The notes under the pieces were generated by a model. That model made no database searches. It worked only from the letters and a program-made list of their open reading frames with translations, and was not told the DNA's origin. Below, piece after piece: positions 3,807 to 60,227 of a stretch of DNA of 64,000 nucleotides. Position numbers and translations under genes: made by a program. How positions within the stretch are numbered: the first letter of the stretch is position 1; the number at the start of each line of letters is the position of its first letter. Source of the DNA: Candidatus Pacearchaeota archaeon (lineage in GTDB: Archaea > Nanobdellota > Nanobdellia > Pacearchaeales > GW2011-AR1); NCBI GenBank assembly GCA_038874355.1, contig JAVZCO010000001.1:434159-498158 (forward strand), given 5' to 3'.

Positions 3807-3928
3807 GAGCCCGTAGCTCAGCCCGGTTAGAGCACCGCTCTTATATGAAGAAGATTCAATAGAATCTTCATTTCCAGGCTAAATGCTAGGAAAGGCGGGG
3901 GTCCTCGGTTCAAATCCGAGCGGGCTCA
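3807..3928 (+). tRNA. tRNA-Ile with anticodon UAU and a 49-nt intron at the canonical 37/38 position; no encoded CCA
   Basis: Acceptor gagcccg/cgggctc pairs perfectly (7 bp). D arm gctc-agcccggtta-gagc. Anticodon stem ccgct/ggcgg with loop c-t-TAT-a. Intron tgaagaagattcaatagaatcttcatttcc... contains the hairpin gaagattc/gaatcttc. T arm ctcgg-ttcaaat-ccgag, discriminator A. Confidence 0.7.
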
Positions 3929-3949: not shown

Positions 3950-4636
3950 ATGAAGTTAAAAAAATTAATATATAGTGGATTATTTTTGTTTTTTTTGCAA
4001 TTAAATTTATACGCAGAACCACAACACATAGTAAGAGGACCAAAAGATAAGAAACAAATAGCATTAACTTTTGATGATGGAGATAATTTAGAAAGTGTGA
4101 TAAAAGTACTTGAAGAAAAAAATGTTAAAGCAACATTTTTCTTAACAGGAAATTATATTATGAAAAGAAAAGAAGAAGTAAAAAGAGCATATGAAAAAGG
4201 CCATGAAATAGAAAATCATACTTATACTCATCCTAATTGTACTAATATATCATTAGATTCTTTGATTAATGAAGTAGTAATAACAGATTCTGAAATTTAT
4301 AATATAACTGGTTATATTCCAAGATTTTTTAGATTTCCATACGGAAAGGCAAATAATGAAAAATTAGAAACAATAGAAAAATTAGGAAAAAAATCTATTT
4401 TTTGGACAATAGATACAAGAGATTGGGAATATAAAAAAGAGGAATACAAAAAAGCAAGAGAAAATATTATAAAAATGATTAATGAACAAACTAATAATGA
4501 AAAAGGGAGTGGTAGTATAATTTTAATGCATACAAAAACAATAGTGGGATCCTATAAGATTCTTCCAGAAATAATTGATCTTTTAAAATCAAAAGGATAC
4601 GAATTAGTTACAATAAATGAAATGTTTGAAAAATAA
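3950..4636 (+). CDS. secreted polysaccharide deacetylase (NodB/CE4 family)
   Basis: Signal-peptide-like N-terminus. Motifs IALTFDDGD, HTYTHP and IILMH match the CE4 catalytic motifs. Confidence 0.75.
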   Translation: MKLKKLIYSGLFLFFLQLNLYAEPQHIVRGPKDKKQIALTFDDGDNLESVIKVLEEKNVKATFFLTGNYIMKRKEEVKRAYEKGHEIENHTYTHPNCTNISLDSLINEVVITDSEIYNITGYIPRFFRFPYGKANNEKLETIEKLGKKSIFWTIDTRDWEYKKEEYKKARENIIKMINEQTNNEKGSGSIILMHTKTIVGSYKILPEIIDLLKSKGYELVTINEMFEK

Positions 4637-4709
4637 TTTTTATAAAATTAAAAAATTTGTAATTTAATTAATTAAGTAAATTTAAAAATATAATTTATTT
4701 TAAGATATA

Positions 4710-4940
4710 ATGAAAAAAAACAAAAAGAGAAAAAGAAAAAATAAAAAAATAGAAAATATGACTTTTTCAGAATTAATTGAAAAAAATCCCAAAGCTGCTA
4801 AAATTTTTTTTGAAAAAGGAATGAATTGTGCTTTTTGTCCTCTTGCTTCAAAAGAAACTTTAGAACAAGGTGCTAAATCACATAATATTGATATAAAAGA
4901 ATTAATTAAAGAATTAAACAAAAACAAAAAGAAAAAATGA
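4710..4940 (+). CDS. DUF1858-like small redox/disulfide protein (hybrid-cluster-protein-associated type)
   Basis: 76 aa; MTFSELIEKNPKAAKIFFEKGMNCAFCPLASKETLEQ with an FCP motif. Overlaps the downstream IscU start by 4 nt, which suggests an operon. Confidence 0.45.
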   Translation: MKKNKKRKRKNKKIENMTFSELIEKNPKAAKIFFEKGMNCAFCPLASKETLEQGAKSHNIDIKELIKELNKNKKKK

Positions 4941-8038: not shown

Positions 8039-9721
8039 ATGAAAAAATATCAACTAACTTACAGTAAAATTAAAGAGAATGATATTTTAATAAACAACAT
8101 AATAACTCATTATAATTTTGGAAAAAAATATGGCTTAACACAAAAAGAAATATGTAAAGAATTTAATATTTCTCAATATACATTAAGAAAAATTTTTAAA
8201 GAATCTAATAGAAAAATTTACTCAAAAAGAGTTTATAAAGAGGATATTGAAGAGATAGTTAAACAATATAAACAAGGAATTCCTATATATAATGAAAAAA
8301 ATTATTTTGAAACTATTTCAGGTTATCATGGATTAAGCAAAAGTACTATAATAAAATATCTAAAACAACAAGGAGTTTATAATTCTAAAAAAGAATATAA
8401 ATCAAAAAATAAGAAAAATAAAGAAGAAATAATAAAAAAAGAAAAAAATTTAGAAGAAAAAATTTTATATGATAATCAAATAGAAAACAAGGAAATAACA
8501 AAAAATAAAGAGTTAAGAGAAAAAAATTTTTATAGTAATCCTTTTCCTGTTACCTATAATCAAAACAATCCTAAAAAAAACTATATAAATTTCTTTAATA
8601 GATTAGGAAAAATTGCAAAAAAAGCTTTAATTACAACAACAGCAGGTCTAATTTTAGCAGGTTCTTTATTTTTTGGCGGTTATAAAAAAGGTTATTATGA
8701 CGCAAAAATGATTTATAAAGAAAAAGAGAAAATTAATTACGTAGAAAAAAAAGAAGAAAATCCAGCAGAAATAAAAATTTTAGAAGAAATTCAGCCAGAG
8801 AAAAAAATAAAAAGCGAACAAAAAAAAGAAATAAAAACAAAAAAACAAAATATCTATTCTTCACAAAAAAGTAAAAAAGAAAATAAATCTTATGAAAAAA
8901 AAGAAGAAAAAGGATCAAAAATTCCAGAAGAAATAAAAAATATAGTAGAATTAAAGGAAAAAGAAAATAAATCTTATGAAAAAAAAGATGAAATACAAAA
9001 AGAAATTCCTTCAAAAGATCTTTCTCTAAATTTAGAGAAAATATTACAATCAGATTTTAAAGAAGTTAAAATAAAAAAACATTCAATTTATTATGAAGTT
9101 TTAGATGAAACAATTCTTTTTAATATTCCAGAAATAATTGAAGTGGAAAAAGAGACATTGAAAATAAAATATGATAAATTAAAAGAGATTGCTACTAAAG
9201 GAAAAGAATTATTTGGAGAAAGACCTATTATAAAGGTTTGGGAAAGAGAAGGAATAGAAGTTTACGGATTTCCAATAAACACTAATGAAGAAATAGAACA
9301 AAGAGGTATCTGGCAAATAAATACAGATTCTAATGGGAAAAGAATTCCATCAGAATACATAGTTTACAATGATATGAAAACAAAAAATGTTTCTCCATCT
9401 AAACCAGATAAAATAATAAATTTTATTCAATTAGAAGAAATAATAAATAATGCAGAAAAAAATAAAAATTTTATTATTCCTCAACATATAAATAAAGATA
9501 AAAATCATTTAAGTGGTTTTGTTATTAAAAAAGATAAAGATAAAAAAGTAATAGTTCAAAATCAAATATATAATTCTGAAAAATTAAATAAATCCTTATT
9601 GAAAAGTATATCAAAAATAGGCCTTTCTGTCGCTGTTGGGGAAATAATAGGACCAGGAGAGAAAGGTATTAATGGATCTTCACAAATACAAATACCACCA
9701 GGGCCTCACCCAGGGATATAA
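8039..9721 (+). CDS. Lys/Glu-rich membrane-anchored hypothetical protein with an internal repeat
   Basis: 560 aa with one TM segment (ALITTTAGLILAGSLFFGG). Internal duplicated segment KENKSYEKKEEK / KENKSYEKKDE. N-terminal HTH-like region (YGLTQKEICKEFNISQYTLRK). Confidence 0.4.
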   Translation: MKKYQLTYSKIKENDILINNIITHYNFGKKYGLTQKEICKEFNISQYTLRKIFKESNRKIYSKRVYKEDIEEIVKQYKQGIPIYNEKNYFETISGYHGLSKSTIIKYLKQQGVYNSKKEYKSKNKKNKEEIIKKEKNLEEKILYDNQIENKEITKNKELREKNFYSNPFPVTYNQNNPKKNYINFFNRLGKIAKKALITTTAGLILAGSLFFGGYKKGYYDAKMIYKEKEKINYVEKKEENPAEIKILEEIQPEKKIKSEQKKEIKTKKQNIYSSQKSKKENKSYEKKEEKGSKIPEEIKNIVELKEKENKSYEKKDEIQKEIPSKDLSLNLEKILQSDFKEVKIKKHSIYYEVLDETILFNIPEIIEVEKETLKIKYDKLKEIATKGKELFGERPIIKVWEREGIEVYGFPINTNEEIEQRGIWQINTDSNGKRIPSEYIVYNDMKTKNVSPSKPDKIINFIQLEEIINNAEKNKNFIIPQHINKDKNHLSGFVIKKDKDKKVIVQNQIYNSEKLNKSLLKSISKIGLSVAVGEIIGPGEKGINGSSQIQIPPGPHPGI

Positions 9722-14950: not shown

Positions 14951-15025
14951 GGTCCCGTAGCTCAGCCCGGTTAGAGCACTGGCCTTTTAAGCCAGGTGTC
15001 GGGGGTTCAAATCCCCTCGGGGCCA
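14951..15025 (+). tRNA. tRNA-Lys(UUU), no encoded CCA
   Basis: Acceptor ggtcccg/cggggcc with a U3:G70 wobble. D arm gctc-agcccggtta-gagc. Anticodon stem ctggc/gccag with loop cTTTTaa. T arm ggggg-ttcaaat-cccct, discriminator A. Confidence 0.85.
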
Positions 15026-15099
15026 TTTTTATAATCCTTTTATAATTTTCTTAAAAAACGAGCTCTGGCGTATTAAAGGGTCATTTTAAAATCACCTCT

Positions 15100-15327
15100 C
15101 TTTTTGTCGAATTCGGATTATTGAGACTTTGTTTTAATAAGCTCAGCCACACCTTTTTCATATTTGGAAGCAGGATATATTGGCCAGAATATTGTTTTAG
15201 CAGCTGCAGAAAATAATATAGGGGCATGTCCTGTTAGCGGTTTGTAGATGATACGTTAATAAAAATATTAGATTTGACAGAAGGGGAAATACCAGTTTAT
15301 ACAATAAGTTTAAGGAAAAAGAAATAA
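15100..15327 (+). pseudogene. nitroreductase-family gene remnant, frameshifted and truncated, with no start codon
   Basis: One frame reads YIGQNIVLAAAENNIGACPVSGL*, the classic nitroreductase C-terminal core. The next frame reads DDTLIKILDLTEGEIPVYTISLRKKK*. No intact ORF. The region is more GC-rich than its surroundings. Confidence 0.45.
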
Positions 15328-15355
15328 TTATAAATATCTTCTTTTTAATAAATTT

Positions 15356-16342
15356 ATGGAAGTTGATATAATTAATATTTTTAATTCAAATAAAAAAATT
15401 TCTGTGAAAATAGTTAATTTATTGGACAAATCAAAACTCTTAAATGATAAAGAGAAATTTTTTGATAGTTTATTAGATGATATAAAAAATGATGGAGAAA
15501 AAAATCACGTAGGAGGATTTTTAAATGAAAACTTATTAAAAAACCAGTTAGAAAGAGAAATTTTTGACAAAAGAATAATTAAAGTTTCAATAAATACGTA
15601 TAAAAAACTAAAAATTAAAGATATAAAACATTTAATAAAAGAAGTTATTAGTCATGTTAAAGCTTTTTTAAATTCTAAAAAAATTTTAGTTTATGTTTTT
15701 CCTACATTTTCGAACTTTATAATCAAAAAAATGAATGGTTGTAGTGGCTTTCTTGCTTACAAAAACATTATTCATATTTATTTATACCCGACAAAAAACT
15801 GGAAAACAAACTTTAAATGCACTCTTTTACACGAATTTGCTCATTGTATACAACCTTACTATTCTTATAAAATGAACCTTTTCGATCATCTAATTGCTGA
15901 AGGTTTAGCAGAACATTTTCAAATGGCCTTTACTAAAAAAAGAAATGCTATTTATTATACTTCTAAAGATAACAAAAAAATGGAGGCTTCTGTTTTGACT
16001 TTTGGTATTGGTTTACAAAGAATCCTATTTTCTATTATAGATTCAAATAGGAATAATAAAAGTATCAATTTTCCGGAAGAAATCAGGCCTTTTGAATATG
16101 CTATTGTATTGCACAAAGGGGAACAGGAATTAGCAGAGAGATGCTATTCTTTTTTAAAAGCAAAAAACAAAGATGTTTACATTGATGATAGAGACCTAAA
16201 TTTTAAAGATAAAATGGATTATGCTGATTTTCTTAATGTTCCTTATAAAATAATTATAGGAAAAAACTCATTAAATTCGAAATTAGAAATTAAAACTTCA
16301 AAGGATGTTACTATATATAAGACACTTGAGGAACTAATATGA
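15356..16342 (+). CDS. HExxH zinc-hydrolase domain fused to a class-II aminoacyl-tRNA synthetase anticodon-binding domain (HGTP_anticodon-like)
   Basis: LLHEFAHCIQ HExxH motif at about aa 160. C-terminal 90 aa PFEYAIVLHKGEQELAERCYSFLKAKNKDVYIDDRDLNFKDKMDYADFLNVPYKIIIGKNSLNSKLEIKTSKDVTIYKTLEEL matches the ProRS/ThrRS/GlyRS/HisRS anticodon-binding fold pattern. Overlaps the next gene by ATGA. Confidence 0.6.
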   Translation: MEVDIINIFNSNKKISVKIVNLLDKSKLLNDKEKFFDSLLDDIKNDGEKNHVGGFLNENLLKNQLEREIFDKRIIKVSINTYKKLKIKDIKHLIKEVISHVKAFLNSKKILVYVFPTFSNFIIKKMNGCSGFLAYKNIIHIYLYPTKNWKTNFKCTLLHEFAHCIQPYYSYKMNLFDHLIAEGLAEHFQMAFTKKRNAIYYTSKDNKKMEASVLTFGIGLQRILFSIIDSNRNNKSINFPEEIRPFEYAIVLHKGEQELAERCYSFLKAKNKDVYIDDRDLNFKDKMDYADFLNVPYKIIIGKNSLNSKLEIKTSKDVTIYKTLEELI

Positions 16343-17366
16343 TAAAGCCTAAAAAATTAGAAAAAGGAGATACCATTGCTTTTATTGCCCCAGCAGGTGG
16401 TTTAGCGGCATTAGTAAAGCATAGATTAACATTAGCTAAATCTTATTTTGAGAAAAATGGTTATAAAGTAAAAATCTATCCAACTGCATTGAAAAATATT
16501 GGCTTTAGTTCTGATACACCAGAAAATAGGGCAAAAGATGTTAATGATTCCTTTTCTAATCCAGATGTAAAAATGATACTATGCACTATAGGAGGAAATT
16601 CTTCTCATCAAATTCTAGATATTTAGATTTTGATTTAATAAGAAAAAATCCTAAAATATTTTGTGGTTATTCAGATATAACAACTTTGCATTTTGCATTA
16701 TATACAAAATGTAATTTTATAACTTTCTATGGTCCAACGGCAATTGCTGAATTTGGAGAAAAAATTAATTTCGAAAAGTATACTGAAGAGTATTTTTTTA
16801 AAGCAGTTGCTTCTAATTTACCTATCGGCAAGGTTTCACCATCAGAAAAATGGACTGATTGCAGAAAAGCAAATTGGCTAAAAAAAGAGGATTTACGATT
16901 AAAAAGAGAATATAAGAAAAATAAAGGTTATGAGTGGTTAAGAAAAGGAAAAGCTGAAGGAAAAATTATTGGCGGTTGTATTACTTCAATGATGCATACA
17001 AAGGGAACTGAATATTGGCCTGACTTTTCAGAAAAAATTCTTCTTTTAGAAACACCTGAAGGAGAATCTTTTTTTAAAGGAGAGCCCTTATCAAACATAG
17101 ATGGTTTTTTAGCAGATTTAAGGCTACTAGGTATACTTAAAAAAATAAAAGGTCTTATTTTTGGTAGAGGATTTGGGTATTCTGATGACGAGATAGAAAA
17201 ATTAAAAGAAATAATACTCTTTAACACACGAGGGTTTGACTTTCCAATTTTATACGGATTAGATATAGGTCATACTGATCCAAAAATAACTATTCCTTTA
17301 GGAGTAAGCGTTACTTTAGATTCTGAAAAAAACATTTTTTCAATAGATGAATCTGGAGTAAATTGA
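16339..17366 (+). pseudogene. S66 LD-carboxypeptidase (LdcA/MccF family) interrupted by a -1 frameshift near 16620
   Basis: ORFs 16339-16626 and 16581-17366 together give a complete S66 protein: IAFIAPAGG ... CTIGGNSSHQILD | YLDFDLIRKNPKIFCGYSDITTL. The frames join after a 1-nt slip at about 16620. No slippery heptamer is visible. Confidence 0.6.
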
Positions 17367-17370
17367 TTTC

Positions 17371-17586
17371 ACGCAACCCCCTTTTTATTGTAAAATCGTG
17401 TCCCGCCACCTCCGATTTCTGACTTCTTGCCATTCTAATCTGCCTCTGTAGGGGTTGCCACCGAAAATTCTCCTGTTGTTGCCTTCGTTAAAATTCACAA
17501 AACGAAAACAAAAAACCCAATTTGCTTCGCAAACAAAGTCTAACATTGGTTAAGCGGTTTCGCTCGCTACACCCAAAGATTTTTCT
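17371..17586 (+). repeat. 216-bp GC-rich intergenic element, copy 1 (identical to 21470-21685); candidate structured ncRNA or recombination repeat
   Basis: Perfect identity with copy 2 over 216 nt. About 45% GC in a roughly 25% GC genome. Contains the long-range complementary pair gcaacccc ... ggggttgc. Starts 5 nt after the S66 stop codon. Confidence 0.85.
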
Positions 17587-17628
17587 AAAAAAACGGGCAG
17601 GGGCTTTTTATAATGGACAATTAGTTTT

Positions 17629-18306
17629 CTAGAAAAAATACTTATATATTTTTCCAATTTTTAACTCTTTTTTATTTCCACTTTTGGAAAAAAAATAAGC
17701 GGAATTGATTCCAATTATTTTATTGGAAGAATTTTTTAAATATATTCCCGTTCCTTCTGGAAGACCAATAATTTCCATATCGGTTTCTTCAATAATCTTT
17801 AATATCTCTTTATCATATTTTTCTTCATAGTGACAAAATACGCCTCTTTCGTTCAATAAATTCATCCCTTCTAAATCAACTAATTTAAATTTATTTTTAT
17901 CTAGGGGTCTGGCAGTAATAATGCTTTTTGTTAATATTATCGCTCCGGCACTTATCCCATAAACTACTTTACCTTCTTTGATAAATTTTCTCAATATTTC
18001 AATAAAATTAGAATCTTTCAATTCTTTTAATAACCTAAAAGTGTTTCCTCCACCGATAACGATTCCTCTAACATTGTTTAAATCCTTAATTGACTTATCA
18101 TTTAGAGTCGTCCACATTTCAAAATTACTATGGTTGAAAGGTGAAAATAAATTTTCAATCATCCAATTTAAAGAAGATTGAAATTCTTCTTTTTCCCTTG
18201 AATGAGGAATAAAAATTATTCTTCCATTTCCTACACTCTTAAAAAATAACGAGTTTATCTCTTTTATTTGTTCCCCTTTCCCTCCTCCAGATAGTATCAA
18301 TTCCAT
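17629..18306 (-). CDS. S51-family peptidase (dipeptidase E / cyanophycinase-like)
   Basis: 225 aa; GGGNTFRLL and nucleophile motif GISAGAIIL; Rossmann-like class-I glutamine amidotransferase-like fold pattern. Confidence 0.7.
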   Translation of the reverse strand: MELILSGGGKGEQIKEINSLFFKSVGNGRIIFIPHSREKEEFQSSLNWMIENLFSPFNHSNFEMWTTLNDKSIKDLNNVRGIVIGGGNTFRLLKELKDSNFIEILRKFIKEGKVVYGISAGAIILTKSIITARPLDKNKFKLVDLEGMNLLNERGVFCHYEEKYDKEILKIIEETDMEIIGLPEGTGIYLKNSSNKIIGINSAYFFSKSGNKKELKIGKIYKYFF

Positions 18307-18326
18307 ATTATAGATTTATTGCGTTT

Positions 18327-19511
18327 CTATTTTTTTAATCTTTCTATTAACCCTAAAGGCAAATCATACTTTTGGCCTAATTCTTTTTTAGAAACACTAG
18401 GCAAAATAATTTTTTTATTTTGTTCTATAGCTATCTTAATATATTCTTCATTTAATAGTTTTGGACTATCAAAGTATCCTGATTTTGTACCTTTTTTTAG
18501 TTGATTGAGGTAATTCTCTAAATTAAAGTATTCTCTGCAGTAATTTTGAAGATAATCTTTAAACTCTTTCTCACATTTTTTATATGTTTCTTCTATTCTT
18601 TTTATTTCTTCCTCAAATATGGGATTTAATAAATCTAAAAGCCCATCAGTTTGACTTTCTGATGCTCTAATTCTCGCTAAAACCTTTTTGGTTAAATATC
18701 TGATTTTGTTCCCTGGTCCTTTTGCTGAAGGAAAAATTCCTTGATTGGATGCTTCATTTAATGTTAGAATATGGTCTCCCACATATTGTGCATCCTCTTT
18801 CTGAAGATATGGGAAATTTGAAATTATTTTTTCAGTTATTTTTTTTAATTTTTCAATTTCAAAAACAGAATTATAACCATTGATTACTGCAACTAATCTT
18901 TCTAAGGCCATTCCAGAATCAACTAATTTTCTATTTTGAGGATCAATGTACGCTATATTCCACAACTCCCATTCTGTGGGAATATGTCCAATTTCCATTC
19001 GCTGCCCCTCTAAAGGGCCATCCTTAATCCTCCAAGACAATTTTGTTGGATCAAGTCTTCTAATTTCTATTCCTAACGAAGAATATCTTTTGGCATTTTC
19101 TGAAATCTCTTTTTTGTTATCTGGAACATTTAAAAAAATTTCATTAGGCGGAACCCCAGTCGTAATCAAATAGTCAATCATATAATCTGTGATCTTTGAA
19201 AAATTTGTATTGTTAAAAGAAAAAACTTCTAGCATCTTAAAGTTTGTTAAATGTCTAGGGGAATATCCAACTCTATAATCGTTATCCGTTCTTAGACAAT
19301 TTTGTATTCTTGCTAACTGTTGCATATTGGACTCTTCATTTCCCCTAAATACATTATCATATTTAATTCCCCCACAAATCATAAATAACACGGCCGCACT
19401 TTTATTTTCGGGGAGCAGGTTTTCTGATTTTTCAGTGCAAAAACCTAGTTTAGAAAAATAATCCAAGTATTCTACTTCTACTTCTTTTAATTCTTTAATT
19501 TTTTTATCCAT
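18327..19511 (-). CDS. standalone alanyl-tRNA synthetase catalytic-core paralog (class IIc aaRS N-terminal domain only, 394 aa)
   Basis: Aligns to the AlaRS N-terminus: YLDYFSKLGF (FLDFF.SKGH), SAAVLFMICGGIKYDNVF (LLFTNAGMNQFKDVF), IQNCLRTDNDYRVGYSPRHLTNFKMLEVFSF ([35 protein letters not shown]). Lacks the tRNA-recognition, editing and C-Ala domains. Confidence 0.7.
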   Translation of the reverse strand: MDKKIKELKEVEVEYLDYFSKLGFCTEKSENLLPENKSAAVLFMICGGIKYDNVFRGNEESNMQQLARIQNCLRTDNDYRVGYSPRHLTNFKMLEVFSFNNTNFSKITDYMIDYLITTGVPPNEIFLNVPDNKKEISENAKRYSSLGIEIRRLDPTKLSWRIKDGPLEGQRMEIGHIPTEWELWNIAYIDPQNRKLVDSGMALERLVAVINGYNSVFEIEKLKKITEKIISNFPYLQKEDAQYVGDHILTLNEASNQGIFPSAKGPGNKIRYLTKKVLARIRASESQTDGLLDLLNPIFEEEIKRIEETYKKCEKEFKDYLQNYCREYFNLENYLNQLKKGTKSGYFDSPKLLNEEYIKIAIEQNKKIILPSVSKKELGQKYDLPLGLIERLKK

Positions 19512-19566
19512 TCTATAGTGGTATAATTTAGATATATTTATAAATATTCTTATTTTCTTTTAAAAT

Positions 19567-20646
19567 ATGGGTATTCCAAGATTAAGATATCAGAATGAAA
19601 TGTGGGATGTGAATCTACCCTCAATTTTGGCATATACTTTTAAAAAAGAAGATATAGATCTTTTTATTAGAGGCAACTCAATACCCTTAGATTTTGATAC
19701 TAATTTAACTGAGAGGTGTAACGCTAATTGTAAATATTGTGCAACACAGGGAGGAAAATTGGATGTGAGATTTAATTACGATAATAGTTTACCTAAATTA
19801 ACAGATGAGCATATTTCAGAGATAATTAAACAATTAAATTTGCTTGGAACAAAGACTTTCTTTTTGTGTAGCAATGGAGAACCCTTACTAAACCCAAAGA
19901 GATTTCTAGATATTTTAGATAAAGCGGGCGATAAAGAGATAAATATTATAACATATACCAATGGAATAACATTAAATAAAAATATTTTAAAGGAATTATA
20001 TAAAAGAAAAGTCAATTTAGTAATAAAATTAGAGTCTTTAAATCCAAGAAAAAACGACGAGATTATCTTTGGCAAGAATGAACCAAAAAACAAGTCTTAC
20101 AATTATTATAGTTTTAATAATCAAAAAGTACCTCGGGGGATCATTGAAGCATTTGAAGTTTATGGAAGTGACTCTAATTGTTTAGGTATCGAAACAATTA
20201 TCTTAAAAGACAATATTGATGAAATAATAGACATCCGAAATTGGGTTTATGATTTGGGAAGCAGTCAATTCTTAAAGCATTTATATCCCCTAGGATATGT
20301 AAAAATTAGTAGGGAAGAAGTTATGCCAGATAATAAAAAAGAAAAAGATTTAGTACAAAAAATAATCGCTTTCGATTCTAAGTATGGTTTTATCTATCCT
20401 TCATTTCAAACGCCCGACCACTATTCTTATGATTCAAGAAGATTTATGAATAATTGTGTGAATATTTATGGTTTTCCTTTTAGAATGTTTGCTCATGAAT
20501 TTGGAGGAATCTATCAGTCTTCTCAAATAGTTACAAAGAACTTTGGATTTGGAACAGAAAGAATTATCTCTCTTTTTGACTCTAAAGGTAATATTAATAT
20601 GAAAGAATATTTTAATAAAATTGAAGAACAAATCAAAAATGAATAA
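19567..20646 (+). CDS. radical SAM enzyme
   Basis: CNANCKYC (CxxxCxxC) at about aa 51; SNGEPLLNP glycine-rich SAM motif. Divergent from the AlaRS paralog across a 55-bp spacer. Confidence 0.7.
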   Translation: MGIPRLRYQNEMWDVNLPSILAYTFKKEDIDLFIRGNSIPLDFDTNLTERCNANCKYCATQGGKLDVRFNYDNSLPKLTDEHISEIIKQLNLLGTKTFFLCSNGEPLLNPKRFLDILDKAGDKEINIITYTNGITLNKNILKELYKRKVNLVIKLESLNPRKNDEIIFGKNEPKNKSYNYYSFNNQKVPRGIIEAFEVYGSDSNCLGIETIILKDNIDEIIDIRNWVYDLGSSQFLKHLYPLGYVKISREEVMPDNKKEKDLVQKIIAFDSKYGFIYPSFQTPDHYSYDSRRFMNNCVNIYGFPFRMFAHEFGGIYQSSQIVTKNFGFGTERIISLFDSKGNINMKEYFNKIEEQIKNE

Positions 20647-21433
20647 TCTTTCAAGAATTACATTTGGAACATGGGGATTGCCAGAATGGAAGGATTATTC
20701 ACAAGATTATTGTAAAGAACTATTTGATTTTGCTTATAGAAATGGAATAAAGAGTTTTGATACAGCATTAGTCTATGGTGGTGGAAGGATGGAACATTTT
20801 CTATCTTATCTTCCAAAAGAGTGTTTTATTGCAACCAAAATTCCTGCAAAAAATAAATCAAAAGAAATAATTGATGCCTATGATTCGTTATGGATTAAAA
20901 AATGTATAGATCAATCAAGAAAAAGATTGAAAAGAGATTCTTTAGATTTAGTTCAGCTTCATAATTGGGATTATAATTGGAATAATTATCAAACATTAAT
21001 TGATTTAATGGTAAATTTAAAAGACACTGGATTAGTAAAAAACTGGGGGATCTCCTTACCATTTGAATCTCCGAATAATCACAGCGAAATATTGGACGAA
21101 CCTGTAATAAACTTTTTTCAAGTACATTATAATATCTTACAACAACAAAATAAAGATATTATTAAAAATTTAAAACAAAAAAACAAAAAAGTTCTTCTGC
21201 GATCTGTTTTATTGCACGGATTTTTGATGGGTTCAATCAATCCTCCTTTTTGTAAAAAGTATAATTTAGAAAAACAAAATTTAAAGAAAGAAAGGGATAG
21301 GTTATTTTTAGGTTTAAATAAAAGAGAAATACTAAAATATTGTTTAAATAACGCTTTTTTAGTAGGGGCAGATTCTATCGTTTTAGGCATAACTAAGAAA
21401 GAGCATATAACAAGTTTGGAAGAATATTTATAA
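20621..21433 (+). CDS. aldo/keto reductase family oxidoreductase
   Basis: ITFGTWGL N-terminus typical of AKRs, FDTALVYGGG, and a (beta/alpha)8-like pattern. Overlaps the radical SAM stop by 26 nt, indicating an operon. Confidence 0.65.
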   Translation: MKNKSKMNNLSRITFGTWGLPEWKDYSQDYCKELFDFAYRNGIKSFDTALVYGGGRMEHFLSYLPKECFIATKIPAKNKSKEIIDAYDSLWIKKCIDQSRKRLKRDSLDLVQLHNWDYNWNNYQTLIDLMVNLKDTGLVKNWGISLPFESPNNHSEILDEPVINFFQVHYNILQQQNKDIIKNLKQKNKKVLLRSVLLHGFLMGSINPPFCKKYNLEKQNLKKERDRLFLGLNKREILKYCLNNAFLVGADSIVLGITKKEHITSLEEYL

Positions 21434-21469
21434 TTTCTTTTTGTAAAGAACAAAAAAAGTCCTGCCCTT

Positions 21470-21685
21470 ACGCAACCCCCTTTTTATTGTAAAATCGTGT
21501 CCCGCCACCTCCGATTTCTGACTTCTTGCCATTCTAATCTGCCTCTGTAGGGGTTGCCACCGAAAATTCTCCTGTTGTTGCCTTCGTTAAAATTCACAAA
21601 ACGAAAACAAAAAACCCAATTTGCTTCGCAAACAAAGTCTAACATTGGTTAAGCGGTTTCGCTCGCTACACCCAAAGATTTTTCT
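21470..21685 (+). repeat. 216-bp GC-rich intergenic element, copy 2 (identical to 17371-17586)
   Basis: Perfect direct-repeat copy located 37 nt after the AKR stop codon, and preceded by aaaaagtcctgccc, which is nearly the reverse complement of the gggcaggggcttttt motif that follows copy 1. Confidence 0.85.
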
Positions 21686-21894
21686 TGATAAAATGGGAAA
21701 AATTCAATCCAGACTTCTTTATTAGGATAGAAAAAATATTCTATTTGTAGAGATAAAATCTGGAAATTATGCAAAATATATAAGCAATTTTGAAGCTGAA
21801 TTAAAAGAATAGCGCAGTATATAATTTAAAAAATAATTATCACCCGCCTTTGACTTGAGAACCATCAGCCGTTATTGCTACAGAGAATAAAATT

Positions 21895-21910
21895 CGAAAG
21901 ATTTATAAAT
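21895..21910 (+). promoter_or_regulatory. BRE/TATA promoter motif cGAAAGATTTATAAAt upstream of rpoH
   Basis: The same 15-mer family occurs upstream of the genes at 38968, 36580, 47661, 8039 and 1344. It is purine-rich like a BRE and precedes a TTTATAAA TATA box. Confidence 0.45.
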
Positions 21911-21982
21911 CTTGGTTAGAATTCATTTAGTATTAGTAAGTTGTAAAAGAAATTTTATTAAAATTAATTTACTGCTATAAAT

Positions 21983-59879: not shown

Positions 59880-60227
59880 ATGGAAAAAAAACAAGCTATG
59901 GAGTTAGTTGAAGAATATGAAAAAAAACAAGGTAGAAATCCAGAGAGAGTAAATAAATTTAGAGAAGGATATGACTTGAAATCTGGAGATAGATTTATTG
60001 ATGTAAAAATAGGAACAGAAAGAGACAAGGATCTTTTATTGAGTTTAACAAAATTTAAAAAATTGGGAAAAAATATAATAAATTATTATGTCTACCTTGT
60101 GATAGAAGGAGAAAAACCAAAGTTAAAAATTCTTGAACCAGAGTTTCTTTTAAGAAACTTTAAATTGCTAACTTTAATGAATGTAAAAGGTAATTCCTTG
60201 AGAAGAGTTAAAGCAGAAGAATTATAA
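59880..60227 (+). CDS. small PD-(D/E)xK-like hypothetical protein
   Basis: GDRFIDVKIG fits D...(D/E)xK. Preceded by a ggaggt Shine-Dalgarno sequence. 115 aa. Confidence 0.3.
   Translation: MEKKQAMELVEEYEKKQGRNPERVNKFREGYDLKSGDRFIDVKIGTERDKDLLLSLTKFKKLGKNIINYYVYLVIEGEKPKLKILEPEFLLRNFKLLTLMNVKGNSLRRVKAEEL

What the first reader, a model, noticed from the sequence alone, without database searches (positions are those of the whole stretch)
15026..21690. tRNA-Lys-adjacent island encoding a cluster of aaRS-derived proteins, peptidases and tailoring enzymes, bracketed by perfect 216-bp repeats
The segment begins at the 3' end of tRNA-Lys(UUU), next to a decayed nitroreductase gene, and is visibly less AT-rich than the flanking core genes. 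It contains three compact transcription units. One is an HExxH zinc hydrolase fused to a class-II aaRS anticodon-binding domain, overlapping by ATGA a frameshifted S66 MccF/LdcA-like peptidase. The second is an S51 peptidase with a standalone AlaRS catalytic-core paralog. The third is a radical SAM enzyme overlapping an aldo-keto reductase. S66 MccF is the known enzyme that hydrolyses the aminoacyl-adenylate amide bond of microcin-C-type Trojan-horse aaRS inhibitors. Standalone aaRS catalytic paralogs have repeatedly been co-opted as amino-acid ligases, for example EpmA/PoxA on EF-P, AsnA, HisZ and the amino-acid:carrier-protein ligases. The combination of an adenylate-forming aaRS core, tRNA-anticodon-domain hydrolase, aminoacyl-nucleotide peptidases and redox tailoring is not a described system. 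It suggests either a tRNA/aminoacyl-nucleotide-centred natural-product pathway or a toxin/immunity module acquired horizontally.
Basis: partly seen in the sequence, partly recalled or inferred. Interest (0 to 1): 0.88.

Follow-up and report, generated by a model that had tools for sequence, protein, structure and literature searches.

The report
Mobile archaeal cassette with swappable tRNA-synthetase paralogs
A foreign, partly decayed stretch in a tiny DPANN archaeal genome holds one intact four-gene unit (truncated alanyl-tRNA-synthetase paralog, S51 hydrolase, radical SAM enzyme, aldo-keto reductase). The same unit travels as an integron-type gene cassette in related archaea, where the synthetase partner is exchanged for lysine-type enzymes, so it most likely attaches an amino acid to another molecule, though its product is unknown.

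Summary
The sequence features are real, but the island is not one system. The window comes from a Candidatus Pacearchaeota (DPANN) genome with 24% GC. The six island ORFs have GC3 of 0.16-0.23, against 0.11 in the other 45 ORFs, so the island is foreign.

**Left part (15026-17366): wreckage.**
- A nitroreductase stub.
- An "HExxH-anticodon-domain fusion" that is a deletion chimera found only in this genome. It joins the first 198 residues of a DUF2268 protein to the last 135 residues of a 360-residue ProRS-like paralog.
- A frameshifted S66 gene.

**Right part (17629-21433): intact.** The 216-bp perfect repeats bracket only this part. It holds S51 and an AlaRS-like gene, divergent from rSAM and AKR.
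- dN/dS is 0.10-0.28 for all four genes.
- In two related metagenomic arrays, co-oriented attC-like sites flank the unit on both sides, as for an integron-type cassette.
- The window has no intact attC. Each repeat is a relic: the 3' half of an attC plus the cassette leader.

Across relatives, rSAM and AKR stay constant. The synthetase-plus-S51 half is swapped among an AlaRS core, class I LysRS and a class II LysRS-like enzyme.

**Best reading (inferred):** an aminoacyl-conjugate pathway, possibly aminoacyl-nucleoside, with a cognate MccG-like hydrolase. The closest precedent is ascamycin AcmD/F/E. I found no description of this module.

The parts
14951..15025 (+). tRNA-Lys(UUU), the core gene at the left border of the foreign segment
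   Evidence: ARAGORN. Rfam tRNA 69.5 bits. No copy of its 3' end elsewhere in the window.
15125..15330 (+). Nitroreductase remnant: only the C-terminal third, split over two frames
   Evidence: Six-frame translation. Pfam Nitroreductase 34 bits, profile positions 111-164 of 167, on the hand-joined frames.
15356..16342 (+). Chimeric ORF. Residues 1-198 are the N-terminal two thirds of a DUF2268 HExxH protein. Residues 194-328 are the C-terminus (motif 3 plus anticodon-binding domain) of a 360-residue ProRS-like paralog. The junction is at a shared KKRN, about 15935-15961.
   Evidence: Pfam. PDB ProRS 2j3l residues 416-546. Homologs fall into DUF2268-only proteins (285-307 aa) and ProRS-like proteins (360-364 aa, 87% identity to P0187 residues 226-360). 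The fusion occurs only in this genome.
16339..17366 (+). S66 (LdcA/MccF family) pseudogene with a frameshift at about 16620. It overlaps the chimera by ATGA.
   Evidence: Pfam S66 N- and C-terminal domains on two ORFs. 80-82% identity to the intact 342-residue S66 of L018, with the break at residue 94/95.
17371..17593 (.). Repeat copy A. Read on the minus strand it is the 3' half of an attC-like site (...CGAAACCGCTTAACCAATG|TTAGAC) plus about 168 nt of cassette leader.
   Evidence: the repeat finder. 216 nt identical. Local alignment to L001 7720-8080 scores 72-75 against 36-39 +/- 6 for shuffles. No Rfam match and no fold signal. No full attC found by model R1.
17629..18306 (-). S51 serine hydrolase (PepE/cyanophycinase/MccG family), second gene of the aaRS-S51 sub-operon
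   Evidence: Pfam 97 bits. Ser-His-Glu triad aligned to PepE 1fy2. dN/dS 0.19-0.28. It co-varies with the type of aaRS.
18327..19511 (-). AlaRS-like paralog of 394 residues: bacterial-type aminoacylation domain plus a shortened tRNA-recognition domain, with no editing or C-Ala domain
   Evidence: Equivalents of R69, W170, E209, N212, D235, G237 and motif 3 are retained; V214 is Ala and N303 is Ala. The family is small, 390-394 residues. dN/dS 0.12-0.19.
19512..19566 (.). 55-bp divergent intergenic region with an A/T palindrome (TTTATAAATA). Inferred to be the cassette's own bidirectional promoter.
   Evidence: Sequence read directly. A similar ATTTATAAATATT lies at the same place in L001 (9966-9987). 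The promoter function is inferred, not tested.
19567..20646 (+). Radical SAM enzyme with a single CxxxCxxC cluster and no auxiliary-cluster cysteines; the most conserved gene of the module
   Evidence: Pfam. The only invariant cysteines are C51, C55 and C58. AF2 model pLDDT 89.5. Fold neighbours are viperin-like, MoaA, BlsE, SuiB and SkfB, and do not settle the substrate. dN/dS 0.10-0.19.
20639..21433 (+). Aldo-keto reductase, overlapping the rSAM stop codon by 8 nt
   Evidence: Pfam 112.6 bits. Always follows the rSAM gene in relatives, except in L007 where AKR is missing. dN/dS 0.14-0.26.
21470..21692 (.). Repeat copy B, same content as copy A. It lies next to the AKR 3' end, where L001 and L012 carry the upstream attC and the cassette leader.

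Best explanation
**Shown.** Positions 15026-21692 are a compositionally foreign, largely degenerate remnant of an integron-type cassette array. It sits between core genes (nrdDG and tRNA-Lys on one side, rpoH-rpoB on the other) of a Pacearchaeota genome.

The left part consists of dead cassettes:
- a nitroreductase stub;
- a DUF2268 gene fused by deletion to the tail of a ProRS-like gene;
- a frameshifted S66 gene.

The right part is one intact 4.1-kb cassette with its own divergent promoter region. It reads [AKR<-rSAM] [AlaRS-like->S51]. In related DPANN contigs, co-oriented attC-like sites bound this same unit on both sides. In the window only the 3' half of the attC plus the cassette leader survives, duplicated as the 216-bp direct repeats. 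These repeats could now mediate loss or amplification of the unit by homologous recombination.

**Inferred.** The module attaches an amino acid to an acceptor.
- The truncated aaRS paralog activates a small amino acid as the adenylate; its catalytic residues are intact. It then transfers the amino acid to a hydroxyl or amino group of an acceptor.
- The constant rSAM-AKR pair makes or tailors that acceptor. My preferred guess is a nucleoside or nucleotide-like molecule, which would give a mimic of an aminoacyl-adenylate or of an aminoacyl-tRNA 3' end.
- The S51 hydrolase co-varies with the synthetase. I infer that it cleaves the same aminoacyl linkage, for self-protection, editing or activation, as MccG and AcmE do.
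- Exchange of the aaRS-S51 half (AlaRS core, class I LysRS, class II LysRS-like) would change which amino acid is attached.
For: **Foreign origin.** GC3 is 0.197 against 0.110, p = 2e-7.

**Decay of the left part.**

**The module is conserved.** The same four genes in the same relative order occur in L001-L004, L006 and L012/13. L008 and L009 are shorter contigs that show parts of it. In L007 AKR is replaced. Genomic contexts differ between these contigs. All four genes are under purifying selection, dN/dS 0.10-0.28.

**Cassette nature.**
- Eight co-oriented attC-like sites occur in L001. Their 13-bp stem has a 2-nt bulge, 94% of cells are paired, and 4 pairs covary, which no shuffle out of 500 matched.
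- Nine sites occur in L012 and five in L018.
- The module is bounded by attC sites at L001 7726-7875 and 12025-12120, and at L012 410-506 and 4727-4819, in the same relative orientation.
- The start of the cassette, G|TTATACGCGTCT, is shared by L001 and L012.
- Integrons are already documented in Archaea, including DPANN (PMC9668308).

**The repeat is an attC relic.**

**The synthetase partner is swapped.**
- L015 is one overlapping operon: rSAM->AKR->S51->class II LysRS-like enzyme with an OB fold.
- L010 and L016 carry rSAM, AKR, an RlmN/Cfr-like protein, S51 and class I LysRS, in two different arrangements.
- In L012 the rSAM and AKR are 77% and 69% identical to the window's, but the AlaRS-like and S51 only 30% and 32%.

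**Catalytic competence.**

**Precedents.**
- The S51 enzyme MccG and the S66 enzyme MccF cleave aminoacyl-nucleotides (PMC9239234).
- The truncated AlaRS-like AcmF and the IleRS-like SbzA aminoacylate small-molecule aaRS inhibitors, and the hydrolase AcmE is proposed (not shown) to remove the alanine (PMC12945691).

**Hints of a nucleotide link.** The single-cluster fold neighbours, viperin and BlsE, act on cytosine nucleotides or nucleosides. A UMPH-1 nucleotidase, a NUDIX protein or an RlmN-like gene lies next to some variants.
Against: - No product, acceptor or activity is known, so the chemistry is inference from gene content.
- The nucleotidase and NUDIX neighbours may be separate cassettes.
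- The class I LysRS copies pass NCBI's equivalog cut-off (269 and 336 bits against 147.55), and the class II-like enzyme keeps an OB-fold anticodon domain. These partners may therefore simply charge tRNA.
- No IntI integrase was seen in the window or in any fetched locus. The one exception is a partial Phage_integrase ORF on a contig for which no DNA was available.
- The window has no intact attC, so calling the unit an integron cassette rests on relatives.
- A 4.1-kb unit between perfect repeats in a MAG could also be a collapsed assembly of a chromosomal site plus a free circle. The Logan unitigs break exactly at the repeats.
Confidence: 0.55

Rival explanations
1. Resistance cassette against aaRS-targeting aminoacyl-nucleotide antibiotics. 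The extra synthetase would be an insensitive or decoy copy of the target. The S51 hydrolase (and S66 in the neighbouring dead cassette) would destroy the inhibitor, as MccG and MccF do.
For: - S51 and S66 members give resistance to processed microcin C (PMC9239234).
- Integron cassettes typically carry resistance and defence genes (PMC9668308).
- The class I LysRS partners pass the LysRS equivalog cut-off.
- The aaRS and the hydrolase are exchanged together.
Against: - It does not explain the rSAM-AKR pair, which is the most conserved and constant half of the module.
- The AlaRS-like (394 aa) and ProRS-like (360 aa) proteins are heavily truncated and score far below the aaRS cut-offs (103 against 457 bits), so they are unlikely to replace the housekeeping enzyme.
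Confidence: 0.17
2. System that modifies a macromolecule. The aaRS paralog would aminoacylate a modified nucleoside in tRNA or rRNA, or a protein, after rSAM and AKR build or prepare the acceptor group. This would work like GluQRS on queuosine, or like EpmA with the rSAM enzyme EpmB on EF-P.
For: - aaRS paralogs that work with rSAM enzymes have precedents (EpmA/EpmB; YadB and queuosine). This rests on established knowledge, not on a test here.
- The lysine variants carry an RlmN/Cfr-like RNA adenine methyltransferase homolog inside the operon.
- The L015 enzyme keeps an OB-fold anticodon-binding domain.
- The AlaRS-like protein keeps part of the tRNA-recognition domain, including a YD..P motif at its end.
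Against: - The unit is a mobile accessory cassette with patchy distribution: 9 protein clusters among 5.8 billion proteins. That is unusual for a modification of the translation apparatus.
- The amino acid changes between variants while rSAM and AKR stay the same.
- There is no obvious role for a hydrolase that co-varies with the synthetase.
- The N303 equivalent that reads G3:U70 is lost.
Confidence: 0.15
3. The AlaRS-like gene is the catalytic half of a split housekeeping AlaRS, as in Nanoarchaeum equitans, and its neighbours are incidental.
For: - Split AlaRS genes exist in a DPANN archaeon (from memory, not tested here).
- The catalytic residues are intact.
Against: - The sequence is bacterial-type, not archaeal: TIGR00344 at 103 bits against TIGR03683 at 24 bits.
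- Its GC3 is foreign.
- It lies inside a mobile cassette with conserved partners.
- LysRS-type genes replace it in homologous modules.
- The family is tiny.
Confidence: 0.03
4. Pyrrolysine-like unit. rSAM and AKR would make a non-canonical amino acid, and the dedicated mini-synthetase would load it onto a tRNA.
For: - Gene content is formally similar to pylS, pylB (rSAM) and pylD (dehydrogenase).
- AlaRS-type enzymes ignore the anticodon.
- V214 is replaced by Ala or Ser, which enlarges the amino-acid pocket.
Against: - No tRNA gene lies inside the cassette in any locus.
- The synthetase partner is exchanged for apparently ordinary LysRS types.
- A hydrolase has no role in this scheme.
Confidence: 0.03
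5. Chance juxtaposition of unrelated, decaying genes.
For: The left third of the island really is wreckage.
Against: - The four-gene unit recurs in at least 8 independent metagenomic contigs.
- Its genes overlap or are coupled.
- dN/dS is 0.10-0.28.
Confidence: 0.02

Closest known systems
Ascamycin pathway AcmD/AcmF/AcmE of Streptomyces (PMC12945691, PMC4257720)
   Same: - A truncated AlaRS-like protein, with only the aminoacylation and tRNA-recognition domains, attaches alanine to a nucleoside-type small molecule.
- A dedicated hydrolase is proposed to remove the alanine again.
- The product mimics an aminoacyl-adenylate.
   Different: - AcmF has lost the activation residues (N219Q, D232E) and uses Ala-tRNA made by AcmD. 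The window protein keeps the equivalents (N185, D198, R74), and no AcmD-like full AlaRS sits in the cassette.
- The hydrolase here has the S51 fold, not the alpha/beta fold.
- There are no sulfamate or halogenation genes; an rSAM-AKR pair takes their place.
- The host is archaeal and the vehicle is an integron cassette.
Microcin C immunity peptidases MccG (S51) and MccF (S66) (PMC9239234)
   Same: - The same two peptidase families occur here, each translationally coupled to an aaRS-derived gene.
- The S51 Ser-His-Glu triad is intact.
- The known chemistry of these families is cleavage of the aminoacyl-nucleotide bond.
   Different: - No MccA peptide, MccB adenylyltransferase or exporter is present.
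- Substrate specificity was not tested.
- The S66 copy in the window is frameshifted.
Archaeal integrons and CALINs (Ghaly et al. 2022, PMC9668308)
   Same: - Related loci show arrays of co-oriented attC-type palindromes (AAC...GTT boxes, bulged bases, variable loop) that separate small cassettes.
- TA modules and acetyltransferases are among the neighbouring cassettes.
- The hosts are DPANN archaea.
   Different: - The cassette is unusually large, at 4.1 kb with four genes in two divergent operons and an internal promoter region.
- No IntI was seen.
- In the window itself the attC sites are degenerate halves, and the unit is bracketed by 216-bp homologous repeats instead.
Mini-AlaRS of Tupanvirus (PMC10036535)
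   Same: - A natural AlaRS reduced to the aminoacylation and tRNA-recognition domains.
- It lacks the canonical residues that read G3:U70.
   Different: - TuAlaRS is a working tRNA-Ala synthetase related to its host's enzyme.
- The window protein is shorter (394 aa), bacterial-type, and has internal deletions in the catalytic domain.
- It is embedded in a conserved operon with non-translational enzymes.
aaRS paralogs that work with rSAM enzymes: EpmA/EpmB on EF-P, and GluQRS on queuosine
   Same: A catalytic-core aaRS paralog transfers an activated amino acid to an acceptor other than the tRNA 3' end, in partnership with radical SAM chemistry.
   Different: - The rSAM here is not of the KamA aminomutase type or the QueE type. 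It is generically MoaA/viperin/BlsE-like.
- The module is mobile and its amino acid varies.

Membership tests
Integron gene cassette / CALIN | attC site: imperfect palindrome with R'' (..AAC) and R' (GTT....) boxes, bulged bases and a variable loop | tested here: met
   Met in relatives only. L001 has 8 sites, with a 13-bp stem, a 2-nt bulge, 94% pairing and 4 covarying pairs. L012 has 9 sites and L018 has 5, with covarying L boxes.
Integron gene cassette / CALIN | Intact attC at the cassette boundary in this window | tested here: not met
   Model R1 finds nothing in the window. The best hit in the island is 13.9 bits, E = 0.08, inside the S66 coding sequence, even with filters off. Only the 3' half of a site survives, in each repeat.
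Integron gene cassette / CALIN | The unit is bounded on both sides by co-oriented attC sites within an array | tested here: met
   L001 7726-7875 and 12025-12120. L012 410-506 and 4727-4819. The module has the same orientation relative to the attC sites in both.
Integron gene cassette / CALIN | IntI integrase and attI next to the array | tested here: not met
   No tyrosine recombinase among the window ORFs scanned or in the gene tables of L001-L018. A partial Phage_integrase ORF lies at the end of one 13-kb JGI contig. CALINs by definition lack IntI.
Canonical alanyl-tRNA synthetase | Four-domain architecture and a score above the curated equivalog cut-off | tested here: not met
   394 aa. TIGR00344 scores 103 bits against a cut-off of 457 and covers profile positions 1-366 of 847. 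There is no editing or C-Ala domain.
Canonical alanyl-tRNA synthetase | Residues for alanine and ATP activation (E. coli R69, W170, N212, D235, G237, motif 3) | tested here: met
   R74, W160, N185, D198, G200 and E204/R205 are retained. 38 of 65 near-invariant canonical columns are kept. V214 is Ala or Ser.
Canonical alanyl-tRNA synthetase | Residues that read G3:U70 (E. coli N303, D400) | tested here: inconclusive
   The N303 equivalent is Ala (PSAKGPGN against PSNEGRGY). A YD..P motif at the C-terminus may correspond to YDTYGFP, but the alignment there is shifted. The residue numbering is from memory.
AcmF-type aminoacyl-tRNA-dependent AlaRS-like transferase | Truncated to the aminoacylation and tRNA-recognition domains | tested here: met
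   compared with the description in PMC12945691.
AcmF-type aminoacyl-tRNA-dependent AlaRS-like transferase | Loss of the adenylate-forming residues (N219Q, D232E) | tested here: not met
   The Asn and Asp equivalents (N185, D198) are invariant or nearly invariant in the family.
MccG-type S51 aminoacyl-nucleotide hydrolase | S51 fold with a Ser-His-Glu triad | tested here: met
   Pfam S51 scores 97 bits against a cut-off of 23.9. GISAG Ser, His and GLPEG Glu align with PepE S120, H157 and E192 (the PepE numbering is from memory).
MccG-type S51 aminoacyl-nucleotide hydrolase | Hydrolysis of the aminoacyl-nucleotide bond, in the setting of an mcc operon | not testable with these tools
   No MccB-like gene appears among the island ORFs. 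The activity needs an assay.
Viperin / pVip antiviral rSAM | Full-length match above the family cut-off, including the C-terminal nucleotide-binding part | tested here: not met
   NF038283 scores 44.8 bits against a cut-off of 180. The PADLOC pVip match covers only the rSAM core, residues 46-179. The fold match has TM 0.5-0.6.
tRNA-targeted integrative island | An integrase plus a direct repeat of the tRNA 3' end at the far border | tested here: not met
   No second copy of the tRNA-Lys 3' end within 3 mismatches. No integrase found.
Structured RNA gene (for the 216-bp repeat) | An Rfam match or unusually stable folding | tested here: not met
   No Rfam hit at E <= 10. Fold z-scores are +0.56 and +0.08.

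The most novel reading that the evidence does not exclude
DPANN archaea carry, on integron cassettes, a modular family of weapons.
- Interchangeable aaRS catalytic cores (Ala, Lys, and in sister cassettes Pro and Asn/Asp types) directly aminoacylate a nucleoside-like acceptor built by rSAM and AKR.
- The products would be mimics of aminoacyl-adenylates or of aminoacyl-tRNA 3' ends that poison the translation of hosts or competitors.
- The co-evolving S51 or S66 hydrolase would act as immunity.

This would be the first archaeal system targeting aaRS or the ribosome with aminoacyl-nucleosides, and a natural plug-and-play scheme for changing the amino acid.
Probability: 0.2. Interest if true: 0.85.

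Novelty: new variant of a known kind. Interest (0 to 1): 0.66.

Why it matters
- **A new use of synthetase paralogs.** It would add a compact, mobile and apparently self-sufficient example to the short list of aaRS paralogs recruited for chemistry outside translation. Nature has also done a useful experiment here: the same rSAM-AKR chassis is found with AlaRS-core, class I LysRS and class II LysRS-like partners, each with its own S51 hydrolase.
- **A direct route to the chemistry.** Four small soluble proteins can be expressed together, and the aaRS-S51 halves can be swapped. The outcome could be a new class of aminoacyl conjugates, or a minimal aminoacyl-transfer platform.
- **Relevance to integrons.** Archaeal integron arrays can move multi-gene operons with internal promoters. 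Such cassettes can also become stranded in a reduced DPANN chromosome, where they decay.
- **A caution for annotation.** A striking domain fusion, an HExxH hydrolase joined to an anticodon-binding domain, turned out to be a deletion scar.

Tried and rejected
- **Repeat as an RNA gene.** No Rfam hit at the gathering threshold or at E <= 10, and no excess folding energy on either strand. Rejected.
- **Repeat as coding sequence.** All six frames contain stop codons. Rejected.
- **Repeat as a full attC.** The covariance model built from L001 finds none in the window, even with filters off. Only a half site is present. A plain blastn of the L001 intergenic elements against the window also missed it. 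Smith-Waterman alignment with shuffle controls was needed.
- **Integration at the tRNA.** No duplicated tRNA 3' end and no integrase among the 10 further window ORFs scanned.
- **Defence-system models.** PADLOC gives only a generic pVip match to the rSAM core.
- **AlaRS-like structure.** The AF2 model was mediocre (pLDDT 68, only 12 sequences), so I did not use it for a fold search.
- **Wider genomic sampling.** The GTDB representative scan found only 2 loci, and the window's own genome is not a representative. The exact-protein look-up of NrdG found nothing, and that of RpoH found only the same sample. I therefore could not compare the tRNA-Lys-rpoH junction in sister genomes.
- **Literature.** Searches for this gene combination found no description.

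Full report
**Organism and setting**

The window has 24% GC. It encodes archaeal RNA polymerase subunits H and B just right of the finding (Rpb5_C 73 bits). It also encodes anaerobic ribonucleotide reductase NrdD/NrdG just left of it, as well as aEF-1alpha, CCA-adding enzyme and other core genes.

NCBI names the window's AlaRS-like protein as coming from a Candidatus Pacearchaeota MAG, on a 575,629-bp contig. The host is therefore a DPANN archaeon with a small genome.

**Check of the observation**

- tRNA-Lys(UUU) lies at 14951-15025.
- A nitroreductase C-terminal remnant is split over two frames.
- ORF 15356-16342 matches DUF2268 and HGTP_anticodon.
- The S66 gene is split in two.
- S51, the AlaRS core, rSAM and AKR are all present.

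The compositional claim holds, but chiefly at third codon positions. GC3 is 0.16-0.23 in the six island ORFs, against 0.110 +/- 0.022 in 45 other ORFs (p = 2e-7).

The repeat is 216 nt of perfect identity with 41% GC. However, it lies at 17371-17593 and 21470-21692. It therefore brackets only the S51/AlaRS-like/rSAM/AKR block, not the whole island.

**The left part is wreckage**

The C-terminal 135 residues of ORF 15356-16342 align to the end of bacterial-type ProRS, that is, motif 3 plus the anticodon-binding domain (PDB 2j3l residues 416-546).

A search of 5.8 billion proteins found the two-domain architecture only in this genome. All other relatives fall into two groups:
- DUF2268-only proteins of 285-307 residues, which match residues 1-198 to 1-214;
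- ProRS-like proteins of 360-364 residues, which match residues 194-328. P0187 is 87% identical over its own residues 226-360.

Both parents read KKRN at the junction. The ORF is thus an in-frame deletion product. It lacks the last third of DUF2268 and the whole catalytic core of the ProRS-like paralog.

The S66 gene is 80-82% identical to an intact 342-residue S66 in locus L018, and is broken at residue 94/95. In L018 the ancestral arrangement survives as an overlapping operon: AsnRS/AsnA-like core (378 aa), methyltransferase, ProRS-like (362 aa), S66. It shows the same ATGA overlap as the window and is flanked by attC-like sites.

So the window once carried a second "aaRS paralog plus peptidase" cassette, and that cassette is now inactivated.

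**The right part is a conserved, selected module**

Close homologs of the AlaRS-like protein number only 9 clusters, of 390-394 residues and 57-100% identity. An exhaustive HMMER scan of 1.84 billion representatives adds only a few fragments before ordinary AlaRS sequences begin, at about 30% identity.

Every contig long enough shows the same unit, [AKR<-rSAM][AlaRS-like->S51], in unrelated surroundings. In L007 a small ORF replaces AKR. Pairwise dN/dS is 0.10-0.28 for all four genes.

The rSAM family reaches further, down to 46% identity, and shows how the module varies.
- **L012/L013.** The rSAM and AKR are 77% and 69% identical to the window's. They are paired with a 440-residue AlaRS-like protein and an S51 that are only 30% and 32% identical.
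- **L010 (a Woesearchaeota MAG) and L016.** These carry rSAM, AKR, a 296-298-residue RlmN/Cfr-like protein, S51 and a class I LysRS, in two different gene orders. In L010, diaminopimelate dehydrogenase and diaminopimelate decarboxylase follow.
- **L015 (a Nanobdellota MAG).** This is a single overlapping operon: rSAM, AKR, S51 and a 398-residue class II LysRS-like enzyme with an OB fold.
- **One JGI contig.** It has two AlaRS-like genes, a NUDIX protein and a DegT aminotransferase around the rSAM-AKR pair.

The module therefore has a constant half (rSAM-AKR) and an exchangeable half (aaRS-S51). The S51 sequence tracks the aaRS type.

**Vehicle**

In L001 the module sits in a run of small cassettes. 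These are separated by GC-rich imperfect palindromes of the form yTAACAyCGGGCTTAA...TTAAGCCCTGTTRRRY.
- Eight copies are co-oriented.
- The 13-bp stem with a 2-nt bulge is 94% paired, and four of its pairs covary, which no shuffle out of 500 matched.

A covariance model built from these eight sites finds nine co-oriented sites in L012 and five in L018, with clearly covarying inner boxes.

The module is bounded by such sites on both sides in L001 and in L012, in the same relative orientation. The first bases after the upstream G|TT are the same in both (TTATACGCGTCT).

These are the features of integron attC sites and of CALIN arrays, which have been described in Archaea, including DPANN (PMC9668308). 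I saw no IntI.

**What the 216-bp repeat is**

It is not an RNA family, shows no excess folding and is not coding.

Read on the minus strand, it aligns with the L001 sequence that runs from the 3' half of the upstream attC through the roughly 200-nt leader to the AKR 3' end. The alignment scores 72-75, against 36-39 +/- 6 for shuffles. It contains ...CGAAACCGCTTAACCAATG|TTAGAC.

The 5' half of the attC is missing from both copies, and the model finds no intact site in the island. The simplest history is a duplication, or Campbell-type re-insertion, of a unit consisting of the half attC, the leader and the module, followed by loss of the second module copy.

In the present genome only homologous recombination between the repeats could remove or amplify the unit.

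One caveat applies. The Logan unitigs of the same sample end exactly in the repeats. Short-read data alone therefore cannot tell an integrated copy from a chromosomal site plus a free circle.

**Mechanism (inferred)**

*AlaRS-like protein.*
- It is bacterial-type: TIGR00344 scores 103 bits, against 24 bits for the archaeal model.
- It keeps the residues that bind ATP and alanine: equivalents of E. coli R69, W170, E209, N212, D235, G237 and motif 3.
- V214 is replaced by Ala or Ser, N303 is lost, and several loops are deleted. The residue numbering is from memory.
- In this it differs from AcmF, the truncated AlaRS-like transferase of ascamycin biosynthesis. AcmF has lost N219 and D232 and depends on Ala-tRNA (PMC12945691).

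*S51.* It keeps the Ser-His-Glu triad. S51 (MccG) and S66 (MccF) enzymes are both known to cleave aminoacyl-nucleotides (PMC9239234).

*rSAM.*
- It has a single cluster and no auxiliary-cluster cysteines. Its structure model is confident (pLDDT 89.5).
- Its fold neighbours form a flat list: viperin-like enzymes with CTP, MoaA, BlsE, SuiB, SkfB and anSME. The substrate therefore remains open.
- The single-cluster neighbours, viperin and BlsE, act on cytosine nucleotides or nucleosides.

*AKR.* By reading the sequence directly, it has the Asp/Tyr/Lys/His motif positions FDTALVYG, ATKIP and QLHNW.

*Proposal.* Taken together, I propose that:
- the aaRS core activates its amino acid and transfers it to an acceptor made or tailored by rSAM-AKR;
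- the S51 partner hydrolyses that same linkage;
- exchanging the aaRS-S51 half changes the amino acid.

A nucleoside-like acceptor is my preferred guess, at roughly 0.3-0.4. The module architecture and the cassette nature are well supported, at roughly 0.85.

**Rivals**

I give lower weight to five alternatives, for the reasons listed in their entries:
- a resistance cassette, with an insensitive synthetase plus a detoxifying hydrolase;
- an RNA- or protein-modification system, like GluQRS or EpmA/EpmB;
- a split housekeeping AlaRS;
- a pyrrolysine-like unit.

Chance juxtaposition is excluded for 17629-21433.

**Novelty**

Archaeal integrons, aaRS paralogs in natural-product pathways, and MccF/MccG are all known. 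I found no description of this four-gene module, or of the exchange of its aaRS partner.

I rate it a new variant of a known kind. The experimental path is short, but no function has been demonstrated.

Noticed in passing
window 3807-3928 (+): Rfam finds a 122-nt tRNA (54.4 bits) that ARAGORN did not report. The length suggests an intron-containing archaeal tRNA.
   Followed up: no
L018 625-1710 and 4024-8114: The same cassette array holds a standalone 361-residue AlaRS-like gene. It also holds an operon of an AsnRS/AsnA-like core (378 aa), a methyltransferase, a ProRS-like protein (362 aa) and S66. Truncated aaRS cores paired with S51 or S66 peptidases seem to be a recurrent cassette theme in these archaea.
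   Followed up: partly
L010 8343-10619: In the class I LysRS variant of the module, diaminopimelate dehydrogenase (353 bits) and diaminopimelate decarboxylase (294 bits) directly follow AKR. Together they are a two-step route to lysine, next to a lysine-activating enzyme.
   Followed up: partly
L010 3417-4313 and L016 3602-4492: An N-terminally short RlmN/Cfr-like radical SAM adenine methyltransferase homolog (296-298 aa; the two copies are 53% identical) is part of the lysine variants only.
   Followed up: partly
L001 4094-4199 / 4635-4740: Perfect 106-nt inverted repeats flank a single small gene (a weak LCM methyltransferase hit) within the cassette array. This may be an invertible or hairpin-forming segment.
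   Followed up: no
L001 2971-3092 / 15394-15515: A 122-nt direct repeat (98% identity) brackets the whole attC array of about 12 kb.
   Followed up: no
L001 3978-13876 (family D4 and neighbours): Sequences downstream of R', such as GAGAGCCTGCAAGGCGTGG, recur after several attC sites. The repeated intergenic unit is therefore longer than a minimal attC.
   Followed up: no
window 21693-21982: 290 bp with no ORF lie between repeat copy B and rpoH. Part of it is less AT-rich, for example CACCCGCCTTTGACTTGAGAACCATCAGCCG. It may be another cassette relic or the rpoH promoter region.
   Followed up: no
L006 4027-4073: This contig, which carries the module, ends in a sequence that by eye looks like a tRNA T-arm and acceptor 3' end on the opposite strand (GGTTCGAATCCCGG...). 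That would be a second case of the module lying next to a tRNA gene. ARAGORN calls nothing, because the sequence is cut off by the contig end.
   Followed up: no
window 59880-60227 (+): This is the only ORF outside the island with island-like GC3 (0.172, against a mean of 0.110).
   Followed up: no
window 8866-9009 (+), inside ORF 8039-9721: An 84-nt tandem coding repeat (82-87% identity) lies in a Lys/Glu-rich protein.
   Followed up: no
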